This document shows, piece after piece, positions 6,433-50,125 of a stretch of DNA of 64,000 bases. A program made the translations under genes and the position numbers. This stretch comes from Archaeoglobi archaeon JdFR-42 (GTDB taxonomy: Archaea > Halobacteriota > Archaeoglobi > Archaeoglobales > JdFR-42), in NCBI GenBank assembly GCA_002010305.1, contig MTND01000018.1, forward strand, positions 69,795 through 133,794, given 5' to 3'. Every line of letters begins with the position of its first letter. The stretch's first letter is position 1. The notes under the pieces are model-generated. The model made no database searches. It saw nothing but the letters and a program-made list of their open reading frames with translations, and was not told the DNA's origin.

Positions 6433-6854
6433 AATCTATGAGTACCAAGAAATTCACAGATGATGAAAATGGGCAAATCCTGATAATTATGGCTCTGCTA
6501 ATATCAGTCCTACTTGCTGGTCTATCCCTGTTATATACCCAGAATTTGCTGGCAGGGACCGAATCTGCATTAACTCAGCTTAATTTTCCAAAGAACGAGA
6601 TACGAGATTTAAACAGGATTGTGGAGGAGCAACTGGTATACTATGCAATTAATAACCCTGAGAATTTTCTGACATATGTCAGAGAACTGGATAAGCAGAT
6701 AACAATGATGTATGCCCTCCATGGCGCTTATGCAGATATAGATGTTTACGATGTTAAAACAAACATCAACGGAGATATCACCTCTTTTTCGGTGAAAATC
6801 ATTTTCAGTAACGCGGTGGTAGATTATGAACACACCAGACAGATTGTCATCTGA
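6420..6854 (+). CDS. Pilin-like protein with class III signal peptide
   Basis: DDENG/QILIIMALLISVLLAGLSLLY N-terminus. Overlaps the upstream gene by 13 nt and the downstream gene by 29 nt. Confidence 0.55.
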   Translation: MAHMKSMSTKKFTDDENGQILIIMALLISVLLAGLSLLYTQNLLAGTESALTQLNFPKNEIRDLNRIVEEQLVYYAINNPENFLTYVRELDKQITMMYALHGAYADIDVYDVKTNINGDITSFSVKIIFSNAVVDYEHTRQIVI

Positions 6855-9204
6855 TGAGAGGGGTGTCTCAATAATTCTTGAATACATCCTGATAATCGGA
6901 ATACTGGCAGTTTTCATGGGGGTGATAGTACTTCAGTTAAACGATATTTTTATAGAAACTCCCACAAGGGTAGCAATGAAAAACCAGTTTCAGGACATAG
7001 GTAATCAGATTGCGACCAAGCTGACCGATATATCCTTGATCGCACCCGATAACGGGTACATCAGAGCCAAGGTGTACATGCCATACGCCATAGGAGACTA
7101 CGATTATCGGGCTGAATTCACTTACATTGGGGGGGACTACGTCCTGAAAATTGAATCAGATAAGCTCAATAAGATTGAATACGTCCCTCTGAATAACTTG
7201 GCTCTTCAGATTATCCCTATGGGTTATACAATCAGCCTGAAAAAAGATCACGAACTCATATACACCAGTTCAACCCATCTCAAACCCACGGCTGTAGCTT
7301 TGGCTTATCCCACCAAGGTAGAAGTTGGCACCAACGTTACGTTCGACATGACTTATTCCACTGGAGAAGGAGACATTTGGTATCAGTGGGATTTTGGAGA
7401 TGGAAACTCAGCAAATGGACAGTATGACTCTGACAATCCTTCCAACTCTCTGGAAGATCATTCATATAATGTGGCAGGAAACTACACTGCAACACTGACA
7501 GTCTGGGATGCTCTTGGATATTCCGATACAGACTCGATCAATATAACAGTCCTACCATCTACTCCTGATCCCTTCCTTCATGCGGATAAATTTGTAACCC
7601 CTGATACAACTGAGCCGAACAACCCTGTTAGAATAACCCTGTATATCAGAGGTGGAGGGATAGTCTCAACAGCCCGAAATATCAGCGTGATACATGTCAC
7701 AGATGTTTCCGGTAGCATGGATCCAGATTATTATGGAGATAACGGGTATACACTATACACATCCAACAGTGGAACCGCAATTCCATCCAAATGGGAATCT
7801 AACATAACAGTAGACGGCAGTTTTTCAAGTCTTACAGTTATGGCATACTCAAACAATGGCAAAGATGTCGATCTATGGGTTAAATCTCCAGACGGCGATT
7901 TTGCAAGGGCCCAGTATCTTATAACCAACGGAGAGTTGTATTATGTGCAGAATCCTGTCGAGGGGGAATGGACGATCGCTGTGGTAGCGGATTATCCAAC
8001 AGACAGCGATACAGTCAATGTGGATGTAGAGAAGAACGGCTATTTCTGGGGATGGTGGTATATCTCAGGAACCCTTGTATCATCTTCAAGCTTCGTTCTT
8101 AATGGAAATGCCACCACGTTCAATCTCCAAATTCCATCTGTAGAGAATCTGAAAATTGAGGCCACTCCGGTGAACGGTAGCAAGGTACTTCACCTGTGGG
8201 TAGAGAAAGGCGCAACTCGTTATGGGCCTTACTCAGGCGCTTACGAAGAATCCAATGGTGGAGGGAATTATACAGCTTACGTTGTGGCTGATTTCCCCTA
8301 TGGAACTCAGGACTTTTACCTCTACACATCTATAGCCAAAATCGACGCTGCAAAGATCACAGCTAAAACCTTTAACGGATTTTTGAGGGGGAGCGATCAG
8401 GTTGGTGTAGTCTCGTTTGGTGGAACGGGAGGTAGTGGCAGGACGCCTAGAATAACTTTAGACCAGCCTCTGACCAATGATACCAATCAGGCAAATTCAA
8501 GTATAGATGGCCTGTGGGCTTATGGTGGAACCCCACTTGGAGGAGGTATAAAAACTGCCAGGGAAGAACTTGTTGCCAACACAACAGCAGGAAACATTCC
8601 CGTGATGATTATTCTGTCAGATGGAAACCCCACTATTACCTCCAGTGGGCAACCTTCTGAAACTTTGGCCATTCAGGAAGCTCTTGACGAAGCAAATGTC
8701 ACCAAACAGACAACTATCAACAATGAATCCATACTCATATACACCATTGGATTTGGACCAGATGCTAACGCAACATTATTGAAAGAGATAGCAAGTTCAC
8801 CCAATAATTACTATTTTGCTGCTACTTCTGAAGAGTTACAAAGCATATATGAACAGATTGCTAGAGAGTTAAGAGAGAAGGCTGCTCAGAATGTTACTGT
8901 AACAGATGTGCTTCCACCCGATGTAATACTTTCTGAGACACCTTCTGGAGCAAATGTCACCTACAGCAACGGGACGACTATAATTAGATGGGAAATACCA
9001 TCTATCCGGATTAACGAAACATGGACTGTGAGTTTTCTTGTCACTCCAACTTCAGCATCAGTAACAGAAACAAATGTCCCAAATGCGTCCAATGTAACTT
9101 TTCTACCTTTTCCTTTTGTAGGAGTGAACTTCACCACAATATACTTACCCCCTGGAGAGATTAACGTGACAAGCCTAGGAGCCAAAAAGGTTGAGCTACA
9201 ATGA
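6826..9204 (+). CDS. Large pilin-like adhesin candidate: class III signal peptide, PKD domain, and a vWA domain carrying an inserted beta-sandwich pair
   Basis: DERG/VSIILEYILIIGILAVFMGVIVL N-terminus. PKD signature WDFGDGNSANG...HSYNVAGNYTATLTVWD. vWA MIDAS DVSGSM at 7702-7719. The rest of the vWA fold follows later (KIDAAKITAKTF...VGVVSFGG...GGTPLGGGI...ILSDGNPT...IYTIGFG). The C-terminus is dense in N-x-S/T sequons. Confidence 0.7.
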   Translation: MNTPDRLSSDERGVSIILEYILIIGILAVFMGVIVLQLNDIFIETPTRVAMKNQFQDIGNQIATKLTDISLIAPDNGYIRAKVYMPYAIGDYDYRAEFTYIGGDYVLKIESDKLNKIEYVPLNNLALQIIPMGYTISLKKDHELIYTSSTHLKPTAVALAYPTKVEVGTNVTFDMTYSTGEGDIWYQWDFGDGNSANGQYDSDNPSNSLEDHSYNVAGNYTATLTVWDALGYSDTDSINITVLPSTPDPFLHADKFVTPDTTEPNNPVRITLYIRGGGIVSTARNISVIHVTDVSGSMDPDYYGDNGYTLYTSNSGTAIPSKWESNITVDGSFSSLTVMAYSNNGKDVDLWVKSPDGDFARAQYLITNGELYYVQNPVEGEWTIAVVADYPTDSDTVNVDVEKNGYFWGWWYISGTLVSSSSFVLNGNATTFNLQIPSVENLKIEATPVNGSKVLHLWVEKGATRYGPYSGAYEESNGGGNYTAYVVADFPYGTQDFYLYTSIAKIDAAKITAKTFNGFLRGSDQVGVVSFGGTGGSGRTPRITLDQPLTNDTNQANSSIDGLWAYGGTPLGGGIKTAREELVANTTAGNIPVMIILSDGNPTITSSGQPSETLAIQEALDEANVTKQTTINNESILIYTIGFGPDANATLLKEIASSPNNYYFAATSEELQSIYEQIARELREKAAQNVTVTDVLPPDVILSETPSGANVTYSNGTTIIRWEIPSIRINETWTVSFLVTPTSASVTETNVPNASNVTFLPFPFVGVNFTTIYLPPGEINVTSLGAKKVELQ

Positions 9205-10745: not shown

Positions 10746-12449
10746 TCACGACTCAGACTTAATATCTGATACCTTCTCAACGATCTTCCCTACAAAATCG
10801 AAATTCAGATTCAGGGCTAAAAGAGCTACTCGGGTAACAAGTCTTGAATCTACACCAGTATTTAGCTGGGAACGTATAAGGATCGGCAACAGCTCTTCTT
10901 TTGGTTCTTTGTTTTGAACGGTTCCATAGGCTTTTATTACTGTGATGACCCCATCTACTAGTTCATTGGTTATTTCGACATCAAACTTATCGAAGTTTTT
11001 AAGCAAGCTCATAGCTAGATCTGCATCAAGGATGTCGTCAAAAATCAGCTTGTGCAGTGCAAATTCGTACTTCAACAATTCCTTTGCTTTTTTTATGTGA
11101 TCCCTTCCAAACTTGGGAAAATCCAAAATAATACAGTTTCTGATATCTATATACAAGGAATTGTTAGTAACCTCGTAAGCGCTGTCTGCGATCAGATTAA
11201 TGGCATTGAGAGGGGTATCATCATCCACCTTATTCAGTTCTTGTTCTCTAGCATACTTCACCATAAGGAAGAGCGGGAGCTTGAGAAGATCATCCTTATC
11301 GTATTCATCAATTATCTCCATCCATTCCTCAAAATCTTCCTCTGTCAATCGTTCTTTCAGTGCCTTCTCATATTCCCTTAATCTATCTTCATACTCTCTC
11401 TCCCTAGATTTCTTTCGGAACATAATATTGTGAATAGCTTTCAATAATGTAGTTATTATCAGATCTTTCTCAGGAACCCCTGTTTCAGAAATCAGGGACA
11501 TGGCAGAGATAAGATGATTGACTACGAACATATCTCCCGCGAGGATCTGATACACAACTCGTGTCACGGATATTATAAACTCCATAATAAAATCTACAGT
11601 CATGGAAAATTTTTGGGTATATAAAATTTCGAGATCTCTAAAGCGTTTTGCTACTTCTTTGAGATTAACTTCATAGCATTCTTCAATATGTTCCATTATT
11701 TTTTTCGCTTTAGGATGATCGAGATCCACAATGGGCAACCATGCGCTCATGATCTGAATCTCAAATTTAATTTTCTCCACCAGATTCTCAACATCATCGT
11801 TTCCAAAATCTGGGGCAGGGCAGAATTTTTTCACACCTATCAGATTATATAGATGCTCAAGATAACTATCTGTGAAAGAGCGCGCCATGATCCTGCGATC
11901 TGCAAATATGTCTTTAAGAGTTAAGATGGTTTTTTTAAGCACATCTTTCATTATATCTTGGGAGTCTTTCACCGGAAGTTCCTCTGCCAGAGCTTTAACC
12001 ACATTGTATACCTTCTCTACTCCGATTTCTATATCTCTGTCAATCCCTGCTTTTCTGTGGATTGCATGCATAATCTCATGGGCAAAGAGACCTTCAAGAG
12101 CTTTTTTGTTAGCTTTGAGATAAGATCCATCTCCAGATACAAAAATAAAGACGAAATCCACATCATCTACATCGAAAGAGAAGGGTACACCACTCTTTGC
12201 ATACTCTGAGAGTTCATCAAGCATATTCCCAGATAAACCTGTTTCTCTCAATTTTTTCAAGGCATAATCTGTAGTTTCACAGATAAAAACCCTGAGGTCC
12301 ATCTGTTCAAGTTCTTCAAATTTTTCTGTTACAGAGTCAAGTATCTGATGATAATACAGTTCCTCCGCCTCATAAAGCTCAAGAATTTCTTCGAGTTTTT
12401 CTGTAGACTCTTTTGGTCTCTCAGAAGTCTCAATGATCAACCGATACAT
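10746..12449 (-). CDS. Hypothetical acidic, largely helical protein with an HExxH motif (possible zincin-like domain)
   Basis: 567-aa ORF with no hydrophobic segments seen. AHEIMHAIH follows a beta-rich segment DVDFVFIFVSGDGSYL. I do not recognise the family. Confidence 0.5.
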   Translation of the reverse strand: MYRLIIETSERPKESTEKLEEILELYEAEELYYHQILDSVTEKFEELEQMDLRVFICETTDYALKKLRETGLSGNMLDELSEYAKSGVPFSFDVDDVDFVFIFVSGDGSYLKANKKALEGLFAHEIMHAIHRKAGIDRDIEIGVEKVYNVVKALAEELPVKDSQDIMKDVLKKTILTLKDIFADRRIMARSFTDSYLEHLYNLIGVKKFCPAPDFGNDDVENLVEKIKFEIQIMSAWLPIVDLDHPKAKKIMEHIEECYEVNLKEVAKRFRDLEILYTQKFSMTVDFIMEFIISVTRVVYQILAGDMFVVNHLISAMSLISETGVPEKDLIITTLLKAIHNIMFRKKSREREYEDRLREYEKALKERLTEEDFEEWMEIIDEYDKDDLLKLPLFLMVKYAREQELNKVDDDTPLNAINLIADSAYEVTNNSLYIDIRNCIILDFPKFGRDHIKKAKELLKYEFALHKLIFDDILDADLAMSLLKNFDKFDVEITNELVDGVITVIKAYGTVQNKEPKEELLPILIRSQLNTGVDSRLVTRVALLALNLNFDFVGKIVEKVSDIKSES

Positions 12450-24626: not shown

Positions 24627-25280
24627 TTGAAGACAGAAAAGATAGTTATAAGATATAAAAACGTACTGGATCCACTCGGTGAGACCACTGCAGAACCCAT
24701 TGAACTCAACGACGGCATTGAGACATTGGATGGCAAGGTCATCGGTCTCCTGGACAACGCCAAGCCCAATGCAGATGAGACAGTGAATGCCTTTAAGGAG
24801 TTCCTCTCTCAGCGATACGATGTCAAAGAGTGGATCTACAGGAAGAAGCCACTTGCAGGCAATGTCGCTCCGGAAGAAGTCCTCAGTGAGCTTGCAGAAA
24901 AATGTGACGCTGTGATAACAGCCCATTGTGATTGAGGATCATGCACGGCCTGGACTATCCGAGATGCGCTAATTCTCGAGAGCAAGGGTGTTCCTGTGGC
25001 GACCTTCTGTTCGACCGCGTTTGCTCCCCTCGGGGCTATAGTTGCTGAGGCTCTCGGGCAACCAGATTTGCCCATAAGTGCCCTCAAACATCCCCTTGCG
25101 GGTCTAACCCCCGAGGATATCAGAGAGAGAGTAAGACCGGTTATCGATGACGCCATCGGGATGCTTACCCTTTCAAAAGAAGAGAGAATTAAGCGCTACT
25201 CGGGTAGGCGCTGGGTAGAAGCGCTCCAGGCCGTGTCTATTGAGGCAAAAGTCGGAGAGGAAGAAGAGGAAGAGAAATAA
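24627..25280 (+). CDS. Candidate UGSC-family selenoprotein (single 217-codon frame containing in-frame TGA at 24933-24935)
   Basis: Track ORFs 24627..24935 and 24996..25280 share one frame. No other stop lies between them. Read-through gives ...AVITAHCD-U-GSCTAWTIRDALILESKGVPVATFCSTAF... TTG start with GGAGG 7 nt upstream. Confidence 0.55.
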
Positions 25281-25293
25281 ATGGAGGCATATC

Positions 25294-26517
25294 ATGGCAG
25301 ATGTAAAGTTAACATCAAGGGAATGGAAAGTGGTCGAATCCAAAGTGGCTGAACTTCCTGTAGACGAAGAAGGAAGGCCGATTCTCGAGCTAGAGCCGCC
25401 AATTGACGACATATACAAATTTTTCTACACTAACAGAAGGACTGATGGACTACCTGTTGTCCCACCTACAAAAGAGAGAGTTCTCAAGATGATGAAGTAC
25501 ATAGACAGAGAACCCGACGAAATTCTGGGGTACTTCCCACCGAGGAACTCTGTTGTAACTCCAGAAAAGATTGCCATTAATGCAGTAATGGCTGGCTGCA
25601 TCCCAGGACATTTTCCTGTAGTAATGCATGCAGTGATGGGATTGATACACAAAGCTTACAATCAGCTTGCCACCACTCTGAATATAGAGGGTATCATCAC
25701 TACAACTCACCCTGTGCACCCTCTAACCATCGTTAACGGACCAGTAATTCAAGAATTGACTTTCAACGGTGGTGTCAACTGTTTTGGGCCTGGATGGAGA
25801 ACCAACGCCACAGTCGGCAGGGCCATCTCTCTGTGTATGCTTAACTTGGGAGGAGGGATGGCTGGAATTGTAGATCACGCTACCCATGGGTCTCCCACTA
25901 AATACTCTTTTGTGGTTGCCGAGAATGAAGAAGAGAGCCCGTGGGACCCATTGCACGTGAGACGTGGATACGATAGAGAAGACTCCACCGTAACACTGAT
26001 GGGATTAGAAGGACCCCATAACGTCCAGGACCACCGAAGTGAGACTGGAGAAGACCTATTGCTTTCATATGCAAAAACTGTGTGTGTGGCGGGAATGAAC
26101 CCATCTACTCTTGCATCAGAGCGCTGGGGTAATATACTCATTGTCGTTAGTCCTGAGTATGCAAAAATTATTCACAGGGATGGGTATGACATAGATGACA
26201 TCAGAATGTTCATCTGGGAATATGGTCGACAGGACCAGCAGTTCTTCGAGCAGATAGGATACGAGCTACCTAGAGGGGGGCTGATGCCAGAATGGCCCAA
26301 ATGGGTATGGAACAGGTTTGATGGTGAAGTCCCACCCACAGCGAAGCCTGAGTACATAGAAGTAATTGTTGCTGGAGGGCCAGGTAGACATGGTCTTGTT
26401 ATGCCCAGTTTTGGATGGACTCATGACCTGACTGTTCCATTAACACTGGCAGATGGAACACCAATACGTTCGGTGATGGATTTCAGAAAAGCAAGAAAAG
26501 CCAGAAACCTTGAGTGA
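25294..26517 (+). CDS. Hypothetical conserved-looking protein (408 aa), function unknown
   Basis: ATG 25294 with GGAGG 6 nt upstream (the track ORF starts at 25240 inside the preceding gene). Motifs TDGLPVVPPT and INAVMAGC. I cannot assign a family. Confidence 0.6.
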   Translation: MADVKLTSREWKVVESKVAELPVDEEGRPILELEPPIDDIYKFFYTNRRTDGLPVVPPTKERVLKMMKYIDREPDEILGYFPPRNSVVTPEKIAINAVMAGCIPGHFPVVMHAVMGLIHKAYNQLATTLNIEGIITTTHPVHPLTIVNGPVIQELTFNGGVNCFGPGWRTNATVGRAISLCMLNLGGGMAGIVDHATHGSPTKYSFVVAENEEESPWDPLHVRRGYDREDSTVTLMGLEGPHNVQDHRSETGEDLLLSYAKTVCVAGMNPSTLASERWGNILIVVSPEYAKIIHRDGYDIDDIRMFIWEYGRQDQQFFEQIGYELPRGGLMPEWPKWVWNRFDGEVPPTAKPEYIEVIVAGGPGRHGLVMPSFGWTHDLTVPLTLADGTPIRSVMDFRKARKARNLE

Positions 26518-43721: not shown

Positions 43722-44240
43722 TTAAGTATTTGTAACAGGGAATATCCTGCAGGATACCATAGATCTCATCATAACATATAATCCGACAATCATTCCGACT
43801 ATCCCTATCACGAATATGATCCCAGAATATTGTTGAACGAGTAAGATGGAAAAAAACAATCCTCCGGTAAGTAATCCCAGAGAAGATAGAAGTATTAGTA
43901 AGCCAAATAAACATGGTGGGCATCCAACGAAACTGAAGATTCCCGCAAATATTGCGCCCATAAATCCTGCTGCTCCATTTTTTCTGGATTTTCGCAACCT
44001 GAAAGATGGTGCTACAAAAACCACATATAAAGCCAAAAGCAGAGAAAAAGGAAGGTAGATGAAGAAACGGGAAAGAGCTATGAGAACTGAAACTTCCGCA
44101 GAATACCCGAACACAAGACTATATAGATATGCATCAAAAAAAGTCAAAAACGAGTAAACGATAATGAAGGAGGTTAAAAACAGAGTTTTGCTGTTGTATA
44201 CTGTAATTTTTATCAGCTCGGTATATTGACCCATTCTCAT
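43722..44240 (-). CDS. Polytopic membrane protein with an intramembrane GCPPC motif
   Basis: 4-5 hydrophobic helices. FSFVGCPPCLFGLLILL places a CxxC pair inside a helix. Last gene of the copper/Fe-S operon. Confidence 0.55.
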   Translation of the reverse strand: MRMGQYTELIKITVYNSKTLFLTSFIIVYSFLTFFDAYLYSLVFGYSAEVSVLIALSRFFIYLPFSLLLALYVVFVAPSFRLRKSRKNGAAGFMGAIFAGIFSFVGCPPCLFGLLILLSSLGLLTGGLFFSILLVQQYSGIIFVIGIVGMIVGLYVMMRSMVSCRIFPVTNT

Positions 44241-44291: not shown

Positions 44292-44747
44292 TCACTCCAC
44301 TACTATTGTACCGATCATCCCTGAATTCTCATGGAACTTGCATACCAGTTTGTATTCGCCATCCTCATTAAATTTAACCAGCAATGAATCTCCTTTTGAC
44401 AGTGTTTCATCTACCATCTCCCCATGTTCACCCTCTATAATCGTCACTGTATGAGTTCCTTCTTCATCCTTAAACTCAACTACATCTCCTTTATCAACTC
44501 TTAGCTCTGATGGAGAGAACTCAAAGTTCTTCAGATTCACAGTCAGAGACGGTGTCCCTTCCTTTACAACCACCACTTCATCATGGCCTTCTTCCACGTT
44601 TACCTGCACTTCTTCAGTTTTTTTGGAGTTGTCCACACATCCAGAAACCAGCAGTGCTGCCACCAACACTACCAAGATTCCTAATTTGAACACCTTTTTC
44701 ATGTTCCTCATATATTTCACCTCCTGATTCACTTTTTGTATTTTCAC
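44292..44747 (-). CDS. Type 1 (blue) copper cupredoxin, lipoprotein-like
   Basis: Ligand pattern H(THTV)...C-x2-H-x4-M (CKFHENSGM), as in plastocyanin and halocyanin. Signal peptide ends in the lipobox-like LVSGC. The true start is probably MKKVFKLG, a few codons in. Confidence 0.75.
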   Translation of the reverse strand: MKIQKVNQEVKYMRNMKKVFKLGILVVLVAALLVSGCVDNSKKTEEVQVNVEEGHDEVVVVKEGTPSLTVNLKNFEFSPSELRVDKGDVVEFKDEEGTHTVTIIEGEHGEMVDETLSKGDSLLVKFNEDGEYKLVCKFHENSGMIGTIVVE

Positions 44748-44764: not shown

Positions 44765-45607
44765 TCAAACCCCAAAGGTGAGTCTAACAGCATCTCTTAC
44801 TCCTGGTGCAAGACCAATTGTGATCAAAGCGAATTTGATGAAGTTATTCAGCTCTCCTTCAGACCTGAGCTCCTTGTCAAGATAGTACAATATGGGTATG
44901 AAAATCATAAATTTGAGAAGAAACATAACAAGGCCAGATCCTGTGAGATTAATGGCTAATCTCGGCAAAACATGTTTCTCCCAGTAACCAAAGAAATCTA
45001 TGGCTATGAAAGTAGCAGTTGCATCTGTCATCTGAGCAAAAATCACCATTGAATTGATGGTCGTGGCTAAAGGCGAGTAGATGGCTCGAAACCCATAATA
45101 AAAAGTAAGCGTGAGGACTGATGCAATTCCAAAAACAGCCAGAAGAACTGCTCCATTTATAACATTAAGCCCGGATACCAGTATGAAGATTATAGCAAGA
45201 ACACACACTACACCGATACTTGCATACACCCTTTCATATCTATATCCGCGTCGATTCTTTAGAAAGACTGCGATGGATAAAGCTGTGATAGCCACAAAAA
45301 AGATGAGAAAATAGATGAGGGGTGTAATCAGTAAGTATTTGAAAGGAGGAGCAACTAGCTCTCCATCTTCCACTACCCTCAGAAGAGCTCCTGAGAGGAT
45401 GTAAGGGATGTTCGCCACCACAAAGGTTCTGTCTACTGTTACTTCCATCTTCCTCAGGAGTTTGAAAAGAAAGAGGACGAAGAGAACTAACAGCAATGCC
45501 CACGTAAGGGTATTCACTGGATTGTATCCAGTATCGTAGAGAATTGGATCAATGTAATATTTCTGAAAAAAAGAGGGGAGGGGGAGGAGAAACATAAAAA
45601 GATACAT
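44765..45607 (-). CDS. DUF63-like polytopic membrane protein
   Basis: 280 aa with ~7 hydrophobic helices. The N-terminus QKYYIDPILYDTGYNPVNTLTWAL resembles archaeal DUF63. Its start shares 1 nt with the upstream stop (TGATG). Confidence 0.55.
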   Translation of the reverse strand: MYLFMFLLPLPSFFQKYYIDPILYDTGYNPVNTLTWALLLVLFVLFLFKLLRKMEVTVDRTFVVANIPYILSGALLRVVEDGELVAPPFKYLLITPLIYFLIFFVAITALSIAVFLKNRRGYRYERVYASIGVVCVLAIIFILVSGLNVINGAVLLAVFGIASVLTLTFYYGFRAIYSPLATTINSMVIFAQMTDATATFIAIDFFGYWEKHVLPRLAINLTGSGLVMFLLKFMIFIPILYYLDKELRSEGELNNFIKFALITIGLAPGVRDAVRLTFGV

Positions 45608-46257
45608 CAGGTCACCTCAAGGAAAGCTGCGTCTCCTATCACGAGGAGGCTTTCATCTTTTCCAAGGAGGGGTAAAACACTGTATCTTCCTAGAGGGGTG
45701 TTTTCATCAATCAAAAAGGTGAAGCTTACCATGCCTTCTTCATCTGTGGTTCCTACTTTCTCTGTATAGATTCCACCTTGTGGGGAATAAACGACTATTT
45801 TTGCATACAAACCACCGAAATCTACTTCCTCTTCGTGATCTTCAGCATCCGAATGATCTTCACTATCCTTATGATCCTCCTCATCTAAATGCTCATCCAC
45901 ATTCTGACCTGTGATATGTCCTCTTTCATCTGCTTGGTCTTTATGATCTGCATCTTCATCTACACTCTTTACTTCATCATGCCCTTCATTTGAACTCTCT
46001 TCTTCATCAGCTCTATGATCGTGACCACCATCTCCATGACCTGCGAGAACTTTCAAAGTCACCGTAATTTCTGCTGGTTTTTTAACCACTTTATCCTCCA
46101 GTTCTACCACCGGTGTCACATGAGGTGGCTCTTCCTCAGCCTGCTCTCCTACGACAGATGCATAACCGAAAACCACCACCGCTCCTATGAGTATTAATGA
46201 GAAGAATATTACAGGAGGAAAAGATAGAAAGTCCCTAATTTTACCCATCTCACTCAC
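45607..46257 (-). CDS. Membrane-anchored His/Asp/Glu-rich protein with a beta-sandwich-like C-terminus (putative metal-binding)
   Basis: N-terminal TM helix. A 74-residue stretch (GHGDGGHDH...EDHEEEVD) holds 10 His by my count and is dominated by D/E. The C-terminus YAKIVVYSPQGGIYTEKVGTTDEEGMVSFTF is Ig/CarboxypepD_reg-like. Confidence 0.55.
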   Translation of the reverse strand: MSEMGKIRDFLSFPPVIFFSLILIGAVVVFGYASVVGEQAEEEPPHVTPVVELEDKVVKKPAEITVTLKVLAGHGDGGHDHRADEEESSNEGHDEVKSVDEDADHKDQADERGHITGQNVDEHLDEEDHKDSEDHSDAEDHEEEVDFGGLYAKIVVYSPQGGIYTEKVGTTDEEGMVSFTFLIDENTPLGRYSVLPLLGKDESLLVIGDAAFLEVT

Positions 46258-46660
46258 CTTCCACTATAATTATGCCCCTCATATAATGGTGTATGGGGCT
46301 GCATACCACGGTACATTCAAACATATACACTCCTTCTTCCTTAGGAGTGAACTCGACCACCTTTTTTTCCCCTGGTTCTATCGGCCCAAGATCTATCCCA
46401 AGAGCTTCGCTTTTAAATCCATGAACCACATCCATCCCCTCTACCACCAGTTTCACTGTTTCTCCTTTCTTCACCCGTATCACTCCTGGATCAAAACCAC
46501 CCGATTCCTGTATGTAAGCCCTTATCAGGATTGTATTGGGCTCTCTTTTTTCTGGCATGACATAGTTATCCAGCAACGGAAGGGATACTGTTCCAATTAC
46601 TGCAATAGTAAGCACCAATGCTACAATTTCCCAGAAGATTCCTCTATTCATATATATCAC
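46250..46660 (-). CDS. Membrane-anchored cupredoxin with a CuA-type ligand motif
   Basis: TM anchor followed by VVHGF...x35...C-TVV-C-SPI-H-HY-M. This is H...C-x3-C-x3-H-x2-M, the spacing of the binuclear CuA site in CoxII/NosZ. Confidence 0.65.
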   Translation of the reverse strand: MIYMNRGIFWEIVALVLTIAVIGTVSLPLLDNYVMPEKREPNTILIRAYIQESGGFDPGVIRVKKGETVKLVVEGMDVVHGFKSEALGIDLGPIEPGEKKVVEFTPKEEGVYMFECTVVCSPIHHYMRGIIIVEGE

Positions 46661-48663
46661 CCCGCTACCACCCAGACAAATGCAATGGCTACCAAGATAT
46701 GTAGCAATGCCATGACCGATGTAGCCCTAAAGGCTTTGTCATGTCCTCCAAGCATCTTGCGAGCTATGTTATAAGTAGAATTAATGGCAAGAGCCATCCC
46801 TATTATGGACAGAGATGCTAGCACATATGGCAAAGACTGAGGAATAAACGGATCCCATTTGAACTTAAATCCAAGAAGATTCCAGCCCCATCCGAAAGGA
46901 TCTGAAAAGGCTGTTATCGGATATGCCCAGAATACCAAGAGGATTGCAACGGCGAATGCCGCCCATATGAATACTATGTAAGGGATCAGTGCATAGCTGA
47001 AAGCCAGAAATATATGTTTCGTTGGTTGATCCGTTTTTGCAACTTTTTTTGAGAACCACGAGAAGGTGTAAAATACGGCTGGATAAGCTACAAGTGCTAC
47101 TCCAGCCACCATAATAGCCCACTTAAACCAATTTACTACCCCTTCTACTCCAGGAGTGAGCAACCCAATGCTGGCAAGATTAGCTCCGAAATTAACGCCC
47201 ATATTCCCCCAGTCTCTGATCCAGGAATAAGGACCAAAGAATACCAGAATATAGAAAACTCCCAGAGTAAATCTTATAAAGCCCATCCACGCCTCATCAA
47301 ACTTATTTTTCGCCTTTGCAGCCATGTGTGCTAAATCTTTTCCAATCATCCGTATTTTAACAGTCATGTTATCAAGGGGACAGGATTTCAAACATTCATA
47401 GCACTGCCCACAGTAAGTATTCTCATCGTGGCCTCCTGGATAAAGCTTCCATGGACAACCATATCCTTCTGGACTACCCCGAATGCACTCTTTTGCCTTA
47501 TGTTTATCACAGATACTTTTATCTCTTGCTCGGACACTGTATATGGAAGCATTCGAATCATGTCCTATGTAAGCTCCCGCCGGACATACACTCCTGCAGA
47601 AATTCCGTGGAGGATGCGTTATATACAATATGGTGCCTACAGCAATCAGAACTACAAACAGTAATCCTGATACCACCGGCCGGGTAACCAGCCACGGAAT
47701 TATGAGAGACATGGTGAGAAACAGAAGAGCACCAAGCCACATATTATTCAGACGCTTGGGCCATTTAAGTTTGAGGGCAAACCATTTTCTCACATTATGT
47801 ACTCCACACAGCCTTCTTCTGGCAATCCATTCACCTATTGCAGGAAGGGGGCACACTGTGCACCATGTCCTTCCTGCCAGTAGGATCATAAACTCAACCA
47901 GAGCAAACCATAAAATCCACACCACAGCAATAGAGAAATTCTTGTTCCCAACTGGATTACCAACAAACCCTGCCACGATAACCACTGCAAAAATCAGCAG
48001 GCTAGGCCAGAGTACTGCAAAATGAAATCCTCTCCACTGGAGAATCCGTTTTAAAATCGGACCTATACCTCTCACTCTGAGAAGATCAATTTCTTTTTCA
48101 AGGGAAATCCCAAGCATTTTGTTCTCTGGTCCTCTCCTAACATAAACTAGTGTGAGCATGCCAACGAAGAGAGTTCCAACCAAGTAGGAATAGTATGTAA
48201 AATTGGGGTTTACCTTTATATCACCCACCATAAAAGGATGGAGTGGGCCACAGGTCACAGAACACCTGATTTTAAATTTACCAGGCTTATCGAAAGTTAT
48301 TGGTCCTATCTCAATGATTTTACCCGGTTCGATGACGATCTTCTGATCTACTGGAGATGGAGTATATCCATCAATAAAAAAGCCGTGAGTTACATCTTCA
48401 GAGATTATCCTGAAAATCACCCTATCTCCTTTGTTTACCTCTATTATTTCAGGATCGAATCCAAATTGATATGCTTTAATATATATTACTCTAATATCGT
48501 CAGGATGATTATGGGGGTCATTGAGCCATTCATCCTCAATCGAGCTTTCATCAGCATTTATGACCGGAAGGAAAAATACACTCAAACTCAACATCAATAA
48601 CACAAAGAGGCATATTTTTTTAATTCCACTCATTTGTTTTCTGATTATATTTACTCTGCTCAT
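46657..48663 (-). CDS. Fusion protein: signal peptide + CuA-motif cupredoxin domain + NapH/NosR/CcoG-like polyferredoxin membrane domain
   Basis: Cupredoxin THGF...C-SVT-C-GPL-H-PF-M. Membrane part has RTWCTVCP and RNFCRSVCP (CxxCP pairs typical of NapH/NosR/CcoG), CGQCYECLKSCP ferredoxin motif and CDKHKAKEC...GCPW. More than 10 hydrophobic helices. Start taken at ATG 48663, which forms an ATGA overlap with the upstream stop. Alternative start is MSGIKK at 48633. Confidence 0.7.
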   Translation of the reverse strand: MSRVNIIRKQMSGIKKICLFVLLMLSLSVFFLPVINADESSIEDEWLNDPHNHPDDIRVIYIKAYQFGFDPEIIEVNKGDRVIFRIISEDVTHGFFIDGYTPSPVDQKIVIEPGKIIEIGPITFDKPGKFKIRCSVTCGPLHPFMVGDIKVNPNFTYYSYLVGTLFVGMLTLVYVRRGPENKMLGISLEKEIDLLRVRGIGPILKRILQWRGFHFAVLWPSLLIFAVVIVAGFVGNPVGNKNFSIAVVWILWFALVEFMILLAGRTWCTVCPLPAIGEWIARRRLCGVHNVRKWFALKLKWPKRLNNMWLGALLFLTMSLIIPWLVTRPVVSGLLFVVLIAVGTILYITHPPRNFCRSVCPAGAYIGHDSNASIYSVRARDKSICDKHKAKECIRGSPEGYGCPWKLYPGGHDENTYCGQCYECLKSCPLDNMTVKIRMIGKDLAHMAAKAKNKFDEAWMGFIRFTLGVFYILVFFGPYSWIRDWGNMGVNFGANLASIGLLTPGVEGVVNWFKWAIMVAGVALVAYPAVFYTFSWFSKKVAKTDQPTKHIFLAFSYALIPYIVFIWAAFAVAILLVFWAYPITAFSDPFGWGWNLLGFKFKWDPFIPQSLPYVLASLSIIGMALAINSTYNIARKMLGGHDKAFRATSVMALLHILVAIAFVWVVAG

Positions 48664-49121
48664 TTTTCTTCCTCCATCCGCCTGAATTTGACGCTTTTGA
48701 ATTCCTCCCACAAATACTCTGAAAATTGATACCATATCTCCGCCAGAGTTCCATCACCATTTCTGACATCCTTTCCAGAGGACGATTTTTCGAGCTTTTC
48801 CCAGACAAAAGAGGCCAGTTCTTTTCCAACCTCATGCAATTCATTGGCTTCTGTTACATCTGAAGTAAACCGCCTTCCAGTTCCTTTAAGAACAGAATAG
48901 AGAAACACTGAGCCACTGTAAGCTGTTTCACTCCGTTTATCGAGATCTGATTCCCATGCGGAATACACATATTCAAACACATCGTGAACAGGTCTTGATA
49001 CCTTATCTTTCGAAAGAGTATTTCTTGCACCAAATACGAGCTTGTTCCAATATCTATCCCTAAGCACATCCCGAACTTTTTGAAAGAGTTCCTTCTTTTC
49101 AGCCTCATGTCCGTTTTTCAT
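48660..49121 (-). CDS. Hypothetical soluble protein (153 aa), first gene of the copper/Fe-S operon
   Basis: No TM helix or signal peptide. Its stop overlaps the next gene's start (ATGA). Family not recognised. Confidence 0.5.
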   Translation of the reverse strand: MKNGHEAEKKELFQKVRDVLRDRYWNKLVFGARNTLSKDKVSRPVHDVFEYVYSAWESDLDKRSETAYSGSVFLYSVLKGTGRRFTSDVTEANELHEVGKELASFVWEKLEKSSSGKDVRNGDGTLAEIWYQFSEYLWEEFKSVKFRRMEEEK

Positions 49122-49207: not shown

Positions 49208-49227
49208 CATTCTCATGAAATGAGAAT
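49208..49227. promoter_or_regulatory. Operator-like palindrome ATTCTCAT-GAA-ATGAGAAT (site 1)
   Basis: Read directly. Perfect 8-bp arms at 49209-49216 and 49220-49227. Lies 87-105 nt upstream of the 49121 start, just distal to the A/T-rich TATA-like stretch at ~49164-49185. Confidence 0.55.
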
Positions 49228-49430: not shown

Positions 49431-49449
49431 CTCTCATTTCATGAGAATG
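49431..49449. promoter_or_regulatory. Operator-like palindrome TCTCAT-TTC-ATGAGA (site 2, inverted copy of site 1)
   Basis: Forward 49432-49449 is the exact reverse complement of 49208-49225 (CATTCTCATGAAATGAGA, 18/18). Lies ~40-58 nt upstream of the regulator gene start. Confidence 0.55.
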
Positions 49450-49489: not shown

Positions 49490-49843
49490 TTGTTCATGGA
49501 TGAGACGGAGAAAAGAATTCTTCAGCATCTCTGCAATGTTCATTCGTATAAAATTCTGGTGGCCCTCATGAAACATGAAATGTCTGCCAGTGAATTGAGT
49601 GAACACTGTAATATCCCTCTCCAGACTGTATACAGATTGCTTAAACAGCTTGAGGACGATAAACTCGTCAAAATTATTAGAATGAAACTAGACGATCGTG
49701 GCCACCATTACAGAATATTTAAAGCCAACATCAGCAAAATCCTCGTCATGCTGGATGGAAATGGTCTTGAAGTTAAACTAATTGAAGAGGACAAGGCAGA
49801 TCGTCTTGCCTCTATGTGGAAAAGCCTTAAAGAGGTGAGATAA
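49490..49843 (+). CDS. ArsR/TrmB-like winged helix-turn-helix transcriptional regulator
   Basis: KILVALMKHEMSASELSEHCNIPLQTVYRLLKQLEDDKLVKII is an HTH plus wing pattern. TTG 49490 per the track. ATG at 49496 is more likely the start. Confidence 0.7.
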   Translation: MFMDETEKRILQHLCNVHSYKILVALMKHEMSASELSEHCNIPLQTVYRLLKQLEDDKLVKIIRMKLDDRGHHYRIFKANISKILVMLDGNGLEVKLIEEDKADRLASMWKSLKEVR

Positions 49844-50125
49844 GTGACCCATTCTCCTATGCACATAATACTGATGATATTCAAAATCGTAAGTTTCCTC
49901 ATTGGAGTCTACATAGCCTTATTGAGCTATCGTTCCTACGTTAAAAAATCTGATCCATCTCTTCTATATTTAGGAGCAGGGTTTGCAGTCATTTCATTTG
50001 CTGTTATCATAGAGGGGATTATCTATGAAGTACTCCTTCAAAGCCTAGTCACAGCACATACCATTCAAAGTGTTATGTTTACTGCTGGAATGATCCTCAT
50101 TTATCTCTCTTTACGATCTAGATGA
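49844..50125 (+). CDS. Small three-TM membrane protein co-transcribed with the regulator
   Basis: GTG start immediately after the regulator's TAA. Three hydrophobic helices. 93 aa. Confidence 0.5.
   Translation: MTHSPMHIILMIFKIVSFLIGVYIALLSYRSYVKKSDPSLLYLGAGFAVISFAVIIEGIIYEVLLQSLVTAHTIQSVMFTAGMILIYLSLRSR

What the first reader, a model, noticed from the sequence alone, without database searches (positions are those of the whole stretch)
46657..48663. CuA-type cupredoxin domain fused N-terminally to a NapH/NosR/CcoG-like polyferredoxin
Within a single polypeptide I read, in order:
- a signal/anchor helix
- a cupredoxin domain with THGF...(40 residues)...C-SVT-C-GPL-H-PF-M
- a polytopic domain with RTWCTVCP, RNFCRSVCP, CDKHKAKEC...GCPW and CGQCYECLKSCP

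The C-x3-C-x3-H-x2-M spacing is that of binuclear CuA sites (CoxII: C-SEL-C-GIN-H-AF-M). The adjacent 136-aa gene (46250..46660) carries the same motif (C-TVV-C-SPI-H-HY-M). A covalent link between a CuA-like centre and a quinol/ferredoxin-facing Fe-S membrane module would be a compact transmembrane electron wire. I do not know this architecture from characterised proteins.
Basis: partly seen in the sequence, partly recalled or inferred. Interest (0 to 1): 0.6.

Follow-up and report, generated by a model that had tools for sequence, protein, structure and literature searches.

The report
CuA cupredoxin fused to NapH-like polyferredoxin
An archaeal membrane protein joins an outward-facing two-copper (CuA-type) electron-transfer domain to an inward-facing iron-sulfur module; it belongs to a widespread, biochemically untested family that most likely carries electrons out of the cell to other copper proteins and to respiratory enzymes.

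Summary
Gene 46657..48663 (-), 668 aa, encodes in order:
- a signal/anchor helix;
- an outward-facing cupredoxin with a complete CuA ligand set (H93, C134, C138, H142, M145), homologous to the Thermus ba3 oxidase CuA domain;
- a NapH-like membrane core with all 12 remaining Cys on the cytoplasmic side;
- a family-specific C-terminal 5-helix domain.

The next gene encodes a second, anchored CuA cupredoxin.

The architecture is not unique. At least 517 species genomes carry it, in archaea and bacteria, either fused (59 of 83 loci) or split into adjacent genes (23 of 83). The Archaeoglobus fulgidus homologue (AF0142-AF0144) was noted in 2015 from sequence analysis and transcript levels only.

Neighbouring genes vary. 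They include type II DMSO-reductase-family molybdoenzymes, clade II NosZ, multihaem cytochromes and CuA-cytochrome c fusions. Some members carry a GltD-like NAD(P)H flavoprotein inserted in the cytoplasmic Fe-S loop. One carries cytochrome c in place of the cupredoxin.

Best reading (confidence 0.5): a modular electron-export unit. It resembles NosR or PceC with CuA replacing the FMN domain, and feeds a chain of cupredoxins.

How electrons cross the membrane, the donor, and the final acceptor in this organism remain unknown.

The parts
46657..48663 (-). Fusion gene, 668 aa: signal/anchor helix, CuA cupredoxin, NapH-like polyferredoxin core and a C-terminal 5-helix domain
   Evidence: ORF. ATGA overlap with the upstream gene and a GGAGG ribosome-binding site. 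Identical 668-aa gene call in GCA_003935005.1. Pfam and NCBIfam hits. AlphaFold model pLDDT 92.7.
48556..48621 (-). N-terminal signal or anchor helix (residues 15-36)
   Evidence: Hydropathy peak 2.84, preceded by a K/R-rich N-terminus.
48208..48543 (-). Extracytoplasmic cupredoxin domain (about residues 41-152)
   Evidence: phmmer E 2e-14 to the T. thermophilus ba3 CuA domain. Foldseek rmsd 1.9 A over 100 residues to 2CUA. Net acidic 120-residue loop predicted outside.
48385..48387 (-). First CuA histidine ligand (H93, in THGF)
   Evidence: Invariant in 79 aligned homologues. Aligns with the CuA His of Thermus subunit II.
48229..48264 (-). CuA loop CSVTCGPLHPFM (C134, C138, H142, M145)
   Evidence: The motif is kept in 99 of 111 full-length homologues.
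47371..48033 (-). NapH-like core: four helices plus the cytoplasmic Cys-rich domain (residues 211-431)
   Evidence: Fer4_5 hit at E 4e-5, above the Pfam cut-off. NapH PRK09477 at E 1e-7 and TIGR02163 at E 8e-7, both far below the family cut-offs.
47848..47862 (-). First Cys motif C-TV-CP (CxxCP) at the cytoplasmic end of a helix
   Evidence: C261 invariant and C258 at least 90% conserved in alignment A1 numbering. Cytoplasmic loop with 9 K+R.
47581..47598 (-). Second Cys motif C-RSV-CP (Cx3CP)
   Evidence: Both Cys invariant. Start of the 105-residue cytoplasmic domain.
47377..47511 (-). Fe-S ligand region: C-x7-C-x9-CP followed by a canonical CxxCxxCxxxCP
   Evidence: All seven Cys are invariant or at least 90% conserved. 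Weak Fer4_9, Fer4_10 and Fer4_16 hits. Site of the GltD-like insertion in the long variants.
46660..47328 (-). Family-specific C-terminal 5-helix domain, with the conserved outside loop SDPFGWGWN
   Evidence: No Pfam hit. 188 representatives among 1.84 billion proteins, and the match runs to the protein's C-terminus in the full-length hits listed. No conserved His.
46250..46660 (-). Second CuA-type cupredoxin, 136 aa, with an N-terminal membrane anchor (VVHGF...CTVVCSPIHHYM)
   Evidence: COX2 and Cupredoxin_1 hits above cut-off, and NosZ CuA domain at E 3e-14. A separate CuA cupredoxin lies within 5 kb in 54 of 83 loci.
48660..49121 (-). Conserved upstream gene, 153 aa: a Cys-free cytoplasmic helical-bundle protein, translationally coupled to the fusion gene
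   Evidence: Directly upstream in 11 archaeal loci. No Pfam or PDB relative. Model pLDDT 86, five main helices, no significant fold match.
45607..46257 (-). Anchored Ig-like (MG2-like) protein, 216 aa, with a 70-residue His/Asp/Glu-rich insert
   Evidence: MG2 hit at E 2e-5, below cut-off. Present in 5 related loci; relatives carry Met-rich segments in place of the His-rich insert.
44765..45607 (-). DUF63 (AliA/AliB family) membrane protein
   Evidence: PF01889 at E 1e-90. The same accession is named AliA_AliB in the precomputed annotation. The AliA/AliB role comes from PMC12462473.
44292..44711 (-). Type-1 (halocyanin/plastocyanin-like) cupredoxin with a lipobox (LVSGC)
   Evidence: Copper-bind hit at E 3e-11 and halocyanin domain at E 9e-11. 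Called as 139 aa in the public annotation. Homologues in 9 loci.
43722..44240 (-). Last gene of the same-strand cluster: a 172-aa four-helix membrane protein with a conserved GCPPC
   Evidence: No Pfam or PDB hit. Found only here and in locus L009.
49211..49225 (.). Palindrome TCTCATGAAATGAGA, about 90 nt upstream of the operon's first gene
   Evidence: The same motif occurs at the equivalent place in L007.
49432..49446 (.). Second palindrome, TCTCATTTCATGAGA, about 45 nt upstream of the divergent regulator gene
   Evidence: two exact sites in 370 bp, against 0.55 sites expected in the whole window at up to one mismatch.
49490..50125 (+). Divergent pair: TrmB/ArsR-like helix-turn-helix protein (117 aa) and DUF7521 membrane protein (93 aa)
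   Evidence: Pfam hits. The same pair stands next to the homologous operon in L007 and L009.

Best explanation
The gene encodes a modular electron-export protein.

**Proposed path.**
1. Iron-sulfur clusters are bound by 11 conserved cysteines on the cytoplasmic face of a NapH-like membrane core. They take electrons from a cytoplasmic reductant. In long relatives this is NAD(P)H, through a built-in GltD-like flavoprotein. Here it is probably reduced ferredoxin or an unidentified partner.
2. The electrons reach the protein's own binuclear CuA centre on the outer face of the membrane.
3. From there they pass to the separately encoded, membrane-anchored CuA cupredoxin.
4. In this organism they go on to a lipid-anchored type-1 copper protein and a still unknown final acceptor.

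Functionally it is the counterpart of NosR, PceC or NapGH, with a CuA domain in place of the FMN-binding domain or NapG.

**Shown here.** Domain identities, ligand conservation, predicted sidedness, fused and split forms, operon structure and the variable partners.

**Inferred.** Metal occupancy, direction of flow, the donor, the acceptor, and how the bilayer is crossed.
For: **CuA domain.** Sequence and fold match to the Thermus CuA domain with all ligands aligned. Ligands are conserved in 99 of 111 homologues.

**NapH-like core.** Family hits. Eleven conserved Cys, all predicted cytoplasmic, with the cupredoxin predicted outside.

**The two halves work together.** Of 83 loci, 59 are fused and 23 have a CuA cupredoxin gene directly upstream of a polyferredoxin of about 470 aa.

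**A second CuA cupredoxin** lies within 5 kb in 54 of 83 loci. In 14 of these it is fused to cytochrome c.

**Adjacent terminal enzymes differ between lineages.**
- Type II DMSO-reductase-family alpha, beta, EB_dh and NarJ genes in 8 loci.
- Clade II NosZ at 732 bits, above the 625-bit cut-off, in L017 and L029.
- Multihaem cytochromes in 16 loci.
- In Ferroglobus placidus the genes neighbour nosZ (PMC4543118).

**The outer domain is interchangeable.** P0228 carries cytochrome c in place of the cupredoxin.

**A cytoplasmic donor module in some members.** Five long members have Fer4_20 plus Pyr_redox_2 (GltD-like, with FAD and NAD(P)H motifs) inserted exactly in the cytoplasmic Fe-S loop. Those with an intact N-terminus keep the CuA motif, and partner cupredoxin genes are present in two of the three loci examined (L090, L091).

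**Redox potentials.** Typical values (CuA about +250 mV, Fe-S clusters far lower) favour flow from inside to outside. This rests on general knowledge, not on a test here.

**Published context.** NapH-like modules with an outer FMN domain are described as modular transmembrane electron-transfer units (PMC8238504).
Against: - No conserved His, Met or Cys lies within the membrane helices, so nothing visible bridges the roughly 30 A between the inner and outer centres.
- I could not read model coordinates to measure distances.
- Only one canonical 4Fe-4S motif is present; the other is C-x7-C-x9-CP.
- No terminal reductase lies in this window.
- Moving electrons outward dissipates membrane potential, which is odd for a respiratory entry point.
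- His-rich and Met-rich partner proteins, copper ATPases and ArsR regulators near some loci point towards copper handling.
- One clade has lost three CuA ligands.
Confidence: 0.5

Rival explanations
1. Menaquinol:cupredoxin oxidoreductase. As proposed for NapH, the membrane part oxidises quinol from the membrane pool near the outer face and passes electrons directly to CuA. The cytoplasmic Fe-S clusters would be a side branch or a regulatory or redox-balancing input, not part of a through-membrane path.
For: - Homology to the NapH quinol dehydrogenase subunit. NapH is regarded as the quinone-interacting subunit (PMC8238504; PMC4543118).
- Strongly conserved, aromatic-rich outside loops (GNxNFS, LVTRP, SDPFGWGWN) and a family-specific 5-helix domain could form a quinol site next to CuA.
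- This reading removes the need for an intramembrane cofactor.
Against: - The GltD-like NAD(P)H module inserted into the cytoplasmic Fe-S loop of some members implies that those clusters carry the electrons.
- All 11 conserved non-cupredoxin Cys are nearly invariant, more than expected for a side branch.
- The scores are far below the NapH family cut-offs.
Confidence: 0.25
2. Copper handling rather than respiration. On this reading it is a CcoG-like cupric reductase or a CuA-maturation device. It would use Fe-S clusters to reduce Cu(II), or to keep the CuA cysteines reduced, so as to supply or detoxify copper for extracytoplasmic copper proteins.
For: - CcoG belongs to the same broad Fer4_5 polyferredoxin group, has two 4Fe-4S clusters and reduces Cu(II) (PMC7558416).
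- ArsR plus CopA lie next to the operon in L007 and L009, and CopB lies 4 kb away in A. fulgidus.
- NosL genes and an ABC-transporter ATPase gene lie nearby in L008.
- TlpA-like redoxin, DsbD and PCYCGC genes recur in bacterial loci.
- Partners and variants carry His-rich or Met-rich stretches.
Against: - The ligand set is that of an electron-transfer CuA centre and is highly conserved.
- The outer domain can be replaced by cytochrome c.
- Co-location with DMSO-reductase-type enzymes, NosZ and multihaem cytochromes suggests electron delivery.
- No CcoG family hit and no FixG_C domain.
- The copper and thiol accessory genes are equally explained as maturation factors for the three cupredoxins.
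Confidence: 0.15
3. Inward flow. The cupredoxins collect electrons from an external or periplasmic donor, such as a nitrite-oxidoreductase-like molybdoenzyme or a metal. The membrane protein then drives them uphill to cytoplasmic Fe-S clusters, ferredoxin or NAD(P)+, using the membrane potential.
For: - The neighbouring type II DMSO-reductase-family enzymes include oxidising members in other organisms (general knowledge; family assignment).
- An unassigned 5-helix domain could in principle couple to ions.
Against: - The thermodynamic gap from CuA to Fe-S or NAD(P)+ is very large (general knowledge).
- No conserved charged residues stand out within the helices of the C-terminal domain.
- NosZ neighbours are reductases.
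- The hosts are mostly anaerobes.
Confidence: 0.05

Closest known systems
[quoted passage not shown] 2015, PMC4543118)
   Same: Orthologous module. It shares 43% identity over 91% of the length (P0061) and is followed by the same small CuA cupredoxin gene. The authors predicted nine helices and cytoplasmic 4Fe-4S sites for AF0143.
   Different: The paper describes AF0142 and AF0143 as separate genes in strain VC-16; the gene is a single 623-aa ORF in strain DSM 8774. The published evidence is transcript levels (up on CO plus sulfate) and sequence analysis only, with no biochemistry. The A. fulgidus locus lacks the Ig-like, AliA/AliB-family, type-1 cupredoxin and GCPPC genes found here.
NosR and PceC/RdhC (NapH-like proteins with an N-terminal extracytoplasmic FMN-binding domain)
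   Same: The layout is the same: an anchor helix, an outer redox domain, then a polytopic core with two Cys-Pro motifs and cytoplasmic Fe-S sites. Both are linked to periplasmic terminal reductases, including NosZ.
   Different: The outer domain is a CuA cupredoxin; no FMN_bind hit was found. The first motif is CxxCP, not Cx3CP. Only one canonical ferredoxin motif is present. There is an extra C-terminal 5-helix domain specific to this family.
NapH (with NapG), the quinol dehydrogenase of periplasmic nitrate reductase
   Same: The four-helix core with its Cys motifs is homologous (PRK09477 at E 1e-7, covering profile positions 93-280 of 286).
   Different: The score is 31 bits against a cut-off of 234. 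There is no NapG partner. The outer acceptor is covalently attached and copper-based. The protein is more than twice the size.
CuA domains of cytochrome oxidase subunit II and nitrous oxide reductase
   Same: Same fold and same H...C-x3-C-x3-H-x2-M ligand set.
   Different: The domain is attached neither to a haem-copper oxidase nor to a CuZ propeller. It is paired with a second free-standing CuA protein, which suggests CuA-to-CuA transfer.
CcoG/FixG cupric reductase
   Same: A membrane polyferredoxin of the Fer4_5 type with cytoplasmic 4Fe-4S clusters and a link to copper. An Ig-like protein is encoded nearby here, whereas CcoG has a C-terminal Ig-like domain.
   Different: No CcoG or FixG_C family hit. 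CcoG has no cupredoxin.
FtrB/FtrD of the FtrABCD iron uptake system
   Same: A periplasmic cupredoxin working with a membrane polyferredoxin (PMC11966278, abstract).
   Different: No P19 or FTR1 permease gene lies in the operon. The CuA ligand set found here is not the copper site I recall being reported for FtrB (from memory, not checked here). The direction proposed for Ftr is inward, with the polyferredoxin as an electron sink.

Membership tests
CuA-type cupredoxin (COX2 / NosZ C-terminal domain) | Cupredoxin beta-sandwich fold | tested here: met
   Foldseek to 2CUA: rmsd 1.9 A over 100 residues, probability 1.00. Model pLDDT above 90 across the domain.
CuA-type cupredoxin (COX2 / NosZ C-terminal domain) | Ligand set His ... 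Cys-x3-Cys-x3-His-x2-Met | tested here: met
   H93, C134, C138, H142 and M145 align with the Thermus ligands. The motif is kept in 99 of 111 homologues.
CuA-type cupredoxin (COX2 / NosZ C-terminal domain) | Extracytoplasmic location | tested here: met
   By prediction only. The domain lies between a signal/anchor helix and a helix followed by a loop with 9 K+R.
CuA-type cupredoxin (COX2 / NosZ C-terminal domain) | Binuclear mixed-valence copper occupancy | not testable with these tools
   Needs UV-visible and EPR spectroscopy of the expressed domain.
CuA-type cupredoxin (COX2 / NosZ C-terminal domain) | Pfam COX2 gathering score | tested here: not met
   The fusion scores 16.7 bits against a cut-off of 22. 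The adjacent 136-aa protein scores 30.6 and passes. The PDB sequence and fold matches are nevertheless significant.
NapH/MauN family (TIGR02163, PRK09477) | Family score cut-off | tested here: not met
   28.8 bits against 213, and 31.1 bits against 234. It is a homologue of the core, not a NapH orthologue.
NapH/MauN family (TIGR02163, PRK09477) | Two Cx3CP motifs after membrane helices | tested here: inconclusive
   One CxxCP (CTVCP) and one Cx3CP (CRSVCP), both conserved and both predicted cytoplasmic.
NapH/MauN family (TIGR02163, PRK09477) | Two C-terminal CxxCxxCxxxCP 4Fe-4S motifs | tested here: not met
   One canonical motif (CGQCYECLKSCP). The other is C-x7-C-x9-CP.
NosR/NirI and PceC/RdhC | Extracytoplasmic FMN-binding domain with the flavinylated Thr motif | tested here: not met
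   No FMN_bind hit in Pfam or NCBIfam at E up to 0.1. A cupredoxin occupies that position.
CcoG/FixG | CcoG family match and a C-terminal Ig-like FixG_C domain | tested here: not met
   Neither appears in the Pfam or NCBIfam hits. The C-terminus is a 5-helix membrane domain.
AF0142-AF0144-type cupredoxin-polyferredoxin family (unnamed) | Full-length homology including the family-specific C-terminal domain | tested here: met
   470 hits, with E = 0 down to about 1e-105 over 84-100% of the length for the full-length hits among the 120 listed. The C-terminal domain match runs to the protein's C-terminus in the full-length hits listed.
AF0142-AF0144-type cupredoxin-polyferredoxin family (unnamed) | Adjacent second CuA cupredoxin gene | tested here: met
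   46250..46660 overlaps the fusion gene's stop by 4 nt. The same arrangement occurs in A. fulgidus and a separate CuA cupredoxin lies within 5 kb in 54 of 83 loci.

The most novel reading that the evidence does not exclude
The family is a haem-free and flavin-free transmembrane electron conduit: Fe-S, then a tethered CuA, then a free-standing CuA cupredoxin. That would be a third biological setting for CuA centres, beyond haem-copper oxidases and N2O reductase. It is widespread in anaerobic archaea (including Asgard lineages) and bacteria, and is driven directly by NAD(P)H in the long variants. The CxxCP and Cx3CP cysteines would bind a cluster at the membrane boundary that makes the crossing possible. 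This could also answer how NapH, NosR and PceC work.
Probability: 0.3. Interest if true: 0.75.

Novelty: new variant of a known kind. Interest (0 to 1): 0.52.

Why it matters
**An open mechanistic question.** NapH-like polyferredoxins (NapH, NosR, PceC, CcoG) are used widely to connect cell metabolism to reactions outside the membrane. How they pass electrons across the membrane is unresolved.

**Why this family is a good handle on it.**
- It carries a built-in, spectroscopically distinctive reporter (purple CuA) on the outer face.
- In some members a defined donor module, an NAD(P)H flavoprotein, sits on the inner face. The path could therefore be followed end to end in one polypeptide.

**New context for CuA.** The family would show CuA centres, including free-standing CuA proteins, acting as general electron carriers in anaerobes. 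Its partners would range from N2O reductase to nitrate-reductase-like molybdoenzymes.

**For this organism.** It marks a seven-gene, copper-rich surface electron chain whose final acceptor is not yet known.

Tried and rejected
- **Locus search with the 79-sequence alignment** failed because no stretch was conserved enough. An 11-sequence alignment worked.
- **Model coordinates are not exposed.** I could not measure CuA to Cys distances or see which Cys group together.
- **Literature searches** for a described cupredoxin-NapH fusion found nothing beyond Hocking 2015. No NosR structure is held.
- **The upstream 153-aa protein** has no Pfam, PDB-sequence or fold match. Only three database homologues were found by word search.
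- **The 172-aa GCPPC protein** has no match.
- **A terminal reductase, oxidase or GltD-like gene elsewhere in the window**: none among the ten other long ORFs I scanned, which look like housekeeping genes or had no Pfam hit; the remaining ORFs were not scanned.
- **Membership of NapH, NosR or CcoG proper** is rejected on family scores and missing domains.
- **FtrABCD** is rejected because no P19 or FTR1 gene lies in the operon.
- **The 195-aa plus-strand ORF 46187..46774** is antisense to the small cupredoxin gene and is taken as spurious.


Full report

Yes. ORF 46657..48735 on the minus strand is uninterrupted. It is an ATG that overlaps the TGA of the upstream gene (ATGA) and sits 8 nt after GGAGG. 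The public annotation of the identical contig (GCA_003935005.1, RSFX01000001.1) calls the same 668-aa product. All quoted motifs are present.

The cupredoxin segment is a genuine homologue of CuA domains:
- phmmer against PDB sequences gives E 2e-14 to the Thermus thermophilus ba3 oxidase subunit II CuA domain, and the His, both Cys, the second His and the Met all align.
- An AlphaFold model built on 79 homologues is confident (pLDDT 92.7, pTM 0.91). Its cupredoxin superposes on 2CUA at 1.9 A over 100 residues.
- Pfam and NCBIfam see COX2, Cupredoxin_1 and NosZ C-terminal similarity at residues 76-177 of the 692-aa ORF, and Fer4_5 and NapH similarity at residues 270-463.

The neighbouring 136-aa gene (46250..46660) is a second CuA-type cupredoxin with its own N-terminal anchor.

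**2. Anatomy and sidedness**

Hydropathy plus the positive-inside rule gives 11 helices.
- Short loops assigned to the cytoplasm carry 3, 9, 9, 4 and 3 Lys+Arg. Short outside loops carry 1, 1, 1, 2 and 0.
- The acidic 120-residue cupredoxin loop is outside.
- All 12 non-cupredoxin Cys are inside.

Eleven of those Cys are invariant or at least 90% conserved across 79 homologues. They are CxxCP after helix 4, Cx3CP after helix 6, then C-x7-C-x9-CP and a canonical CxxCxxCxxxCP. So there is one classical 4Fe-4S motif and one irregular one. Eleven conserved Cys are more than two clusters need.

The last 223 residues form five helices with conserved outside loops (SDPFGWGWN). There is no Pfam hit and no conserved His, so a haem b site is unlikely. 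An exhaustive HMMER search of 1.84 billion representatives with this domain alone found 188 proteins, and in the full-length hits listed the match runs to the protein's C-terminus. It is therefore the signature of this family.

**3. The architecture is widespread, not unique**

A search of 5.8 billion protein clusters returned 470 relatives; most of the 120 listed align over 84-100% of the length, and several sources label them 'polyferredoxin/plastocyanin'. A scan of one genome per species confirmed 517 stretches that encode a relative. These lineages appear among the 80 loci listed:
- Archaea: Archaeoglobi, Hadarchaeota, Thermoplasmatota, Nitrososphaerota/Caldarchaeales, and Heimdall-, Thor- and Promethearchaeota.
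- Bacteria: Chloroflexota, Desulfobacterales, Fidelibacterota, Gemmatimonadota, Acidobacteriota and others.

The best genome matches are 68% (an uncultured archaeon) and 65% ('Archaeoglobus sp. JdFR-37').

The A. fulgidus orthologue (43% identity) is a single 623-aa gene followed by a 126-aa COX2-like gene. Hocking et al. [quoted passage not shown]
- a NapH homologue with nine helices flanked by two oxidase-subunit-II-like genes;
- upregulated on CO plus sulfate;
- next to nosZ in Ferroglobus placidus.

That description rests on sequence analysis and transcript levels only. I found no biochemical characterisation.

**4. Comparative evidence on function**

Across 83 non-redundant loci:
- 59 encode the fusion.
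- 23 encode a CuA cupredoxin gene of about 160 aa directly upstream of a polyferredoxin of about 470 aa. This fused-or-split pattern shows the two parts act together.
- 54 have a further separate CuA cupredoxin within 5 kb. In 14 of these it is fused to a c-type cytochrome domain.

Neighbouring enzymes differ by lineage:
- Tat-exported type II DMSO-reductase-family alpha subunit with Fe-S beta, EB_dh haem-b gamma and NarJ-like chaperone genes in 8 loci.
- Clade II Sec-type NosZ at 732 bits, above its 625-bit cut-off, beside the split module in two Caldarchaeales loci. A NosZ-like gene lies in a Fidelibacterota locus.
- In Desulfobacterales, a five-haem cytochrome of 565 aa, a type-1 cupredoxin, DsbD and a TlpA-like WCxPC redoxin.
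- NosL genes and an ABC-transporter ATPase gene in one deltaproteobacterial locus.

Two architectural variants are the most informative.
- P0228 has a cytochrome c domain where the cupredoxin should be. The outer domain is therefore an exchangeable electron carrier.
- Five long members (920-1248 aa) carry Fer4_20 plus Pyr_redox_2. This is the GltD/NfnB-type NAD(P)H:Fe-S flavoprotein, with recognisable FAD and NAD(P)H glycine motifs. It is inserted precisely between the window protein's C(385)DKHKAK and EC(393) in the cytoplasmic Fe-S loop. The two that carry the cupredoxin domain (P0127, P0163) keep the CuA motif, and partner cupredoxin genes are present in two of the three long-variant loci examined (L090, L091).

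In these long proteins NAD(P)H is evidently the cytoplasmic donor to the same Fe-S region.

**5. Most likely mechanism**

Taken together, the family looks like the NapH-like modular electron-transfer units catalogued by Meheust et al. 2021 (PMC8238504). There, most members carry an N-terminal extracytoplasmic FMN-binding domain (NosR, PceC). Here a CuA cupredoxin takes that place.

I propose this sequence:
1. A cytoplasmic reductant reduces the Fe-S clusters.
2. Electrons reach the tethered CuA outside.
3. They pass to the anchored 136-aa CuA protein.
4. They go on to whatever periplasmic acceptor the lineage encodes.

From general knowledge of potentials, CuA lies near +250 mV and Fe-S clusters much lower, so outward flow is downhill.

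In this window the chain continues to a lipobox-bearing type-1 cupredoxin (44292..44711). No terminal enzyme is encoded in the operon, and none appeared among the ten other long ORFs scanned.

The crossing step itself is not explained. No cofactor ligand is conserved inside the bilayer. The function of the Cys-Pro motifs is unknown even in NapH, NosR and PceC (PMC5928378). I could not read coordinates from the model.

I rate this explanation at 0.5.

**6. Rivals**

| Rival | For | Against | Confidence |
|---|---|---|---|
| NapH-style menaquinol:cupredoxin oxidoreductase, with a quinol site formed by the conserved outer loops and the C-terminal domain | Avoids the crossing problem | Explains the GltD insertion poorly | 0.25 |
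| Copper handling, like the cupric reductase CcoG (PMC7558416) | ArsR-CopA next to the operon in the closest relatives; CopB 4 kb away in A. fulgidus; NosL, TlpA/DsbD and PCYCGC genes; His- or Met-rich stretches in partner proteins | These are equally expected as maturation factors for three cupredoxins; the cytochrome c swap and the respiratory neighbours argue for electron delivery | 0.15 |
| Inward, uphill flow | Some neighbouring enzyme families include oxidising members | Thermodynamically unattractive | 0.05 |

**7. Operon and regulation in this window**

Seven same-strand genes are tightly packed or overlapping between 49121 and 43722:
1. The 153-aa helical protein, conserved upstream in 11 archaeal loci, Cys-free, with no known relative.
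2. The fusion gene.
3. The small CuA protein.
4. An anchored Ig-like protein with a 70-residue His/Asp/Glu-rich insert.
5. A DUF63 (AliA/AliB family) protein.
6. The type-1 cupredoxin lipoprotein.
7. A four-helix GCPPC protein.

Divergently transcribed are a TrmB/ArsR-like regulator gene and a DUF7521 membrane protein gene. This pair is also found beside the operon in L007 and L009. The 370-bp intergenic region holds two perfect TCTCAT-N3-ATGAGA palindromes. The same motif sits at the equivalent place in L007.

**8. Comparison with known families, and novelty**

It works like NosR or PceC, but it is not a member of NosR, NapH or CcoG:
- The family scores are far below the cut-offs.
- The FMN and FixG_C domains are absent.
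- One Cys motif and one ferredoxin motif differ.
- There is an extra C-terminal domain.

It is a member of the unnamed AF0142-AF0144 family. I rate it a new variant of a known kind. It is real, widespread, already visible in databases and mentioned once in the literature, but uncharacterised. Its mechanistic interest lies in pairing CuA with a NapH-like core, and in some members with an NAD(P)H module.

Interest: 0.52.

Noticed in passing
window 49211-49225 and 49432-49446; L007 6904-6918: Two perfect palindromes TCTCAT-N3-ATGAGA lie in the divergent intergenic region between the operon and the TrmB/ArsR-like regulator gene. The same motif occurs at the equivalent position in a related locus. 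This is probably the regulator's operator.
   Followed up: partly
window 44765-45607 and 44292-44711: A DUF63 gene sits directly upstream of the type-1 cupredoxin that carries a lipobox (LVSGC). PF01889 is named AliA_AliB in newer annotation, the family of the archaeal lipoprotein lipidation enzymes. Among 83 related loci, this DUF63 gene occurs only in this window. It may be a dedicated lipidation enzyme for the cupredoxin.
   Followed up: partly
window 43722-44240; L009 11163-11660: A 172-aa four-helix membrane protein has a conserved GCPPC within a helix and a C-terminal SC. It has no Pfam or PDB relative. It might be a thiol-disulfide or copper-passing membrane protein, playing the part that CcdA/DsbD genes play in the bacterial loci.
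   Followed up: partly
window 45607-46257; L006, L007, L009, L011: The anchored Ig-like protein has a 70-residue His/Asp/Glu-rich insert here and in L011. Close relatives have Met-rich segments (KEMRRMMVDML, MKMDYSG) at that position. Both compositions are typical of extracytoplasmic copper binding.
   Followed up: partly
proteins P0020, P0022, P0042-P0054 (Archaeoglobaceae metagenome genomes); L016: A clade of full-length homologues has RDPVPCDALNPF[ED]Y in place of the CuA loop. The first Cys is replaced by Asp, the second His by Asn and the Met by Glu or Asp, while the first His and second Cys are kept. This is either a different metal site or a metal-free domain. In L016 this form still sits next to a molybdoenzyme.
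   Followed up: no
proteins P0126, P0127, P0153, P0159, P0163; loci L089-L091: Long family members carry a GltD/NfnB-like NAD(P)H flavoprotein module inserted in the cytoplasmic Fe-S loop. P0163 and P0143 also have an N-terminal thioredoxin-fold domain. P0063 has two cupredoxin domains. P0228 has cytochrome c plus Met/His-rich stretches in place of the cupredoxin.
   Followed up: partly
L016 2657-3772: In one Archaeoglobaceae locus, the conserved upstream helical protein appears as the C-terminal part of a 371-aa ORF whose N-terminal part has several His-containing membrane helices. This is either a real fusion or two merged gene calls.
   Followed up: no
window 46187-46774 (+): A 195-aa ORF lies antisense to the small cupredoxin gene and the end of the fusion gene. 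It is almost certainly spurious, but it is longer than the real 136-aa gene and displaced it in my length-based ORF filter.
   Followed up: yes
window 10746-12449 (-) and 25240-26517 (+): Two long ORFs (567 and 425 aa) have no Pfam hit at E 1e-5.
   Followed up: no
window 6826-9204 (+): A 792-aa protein with DUF7266, PKD and von Willebrand A domains, probably a surface protein. It is unrelated to the finding.
   Followed up: no
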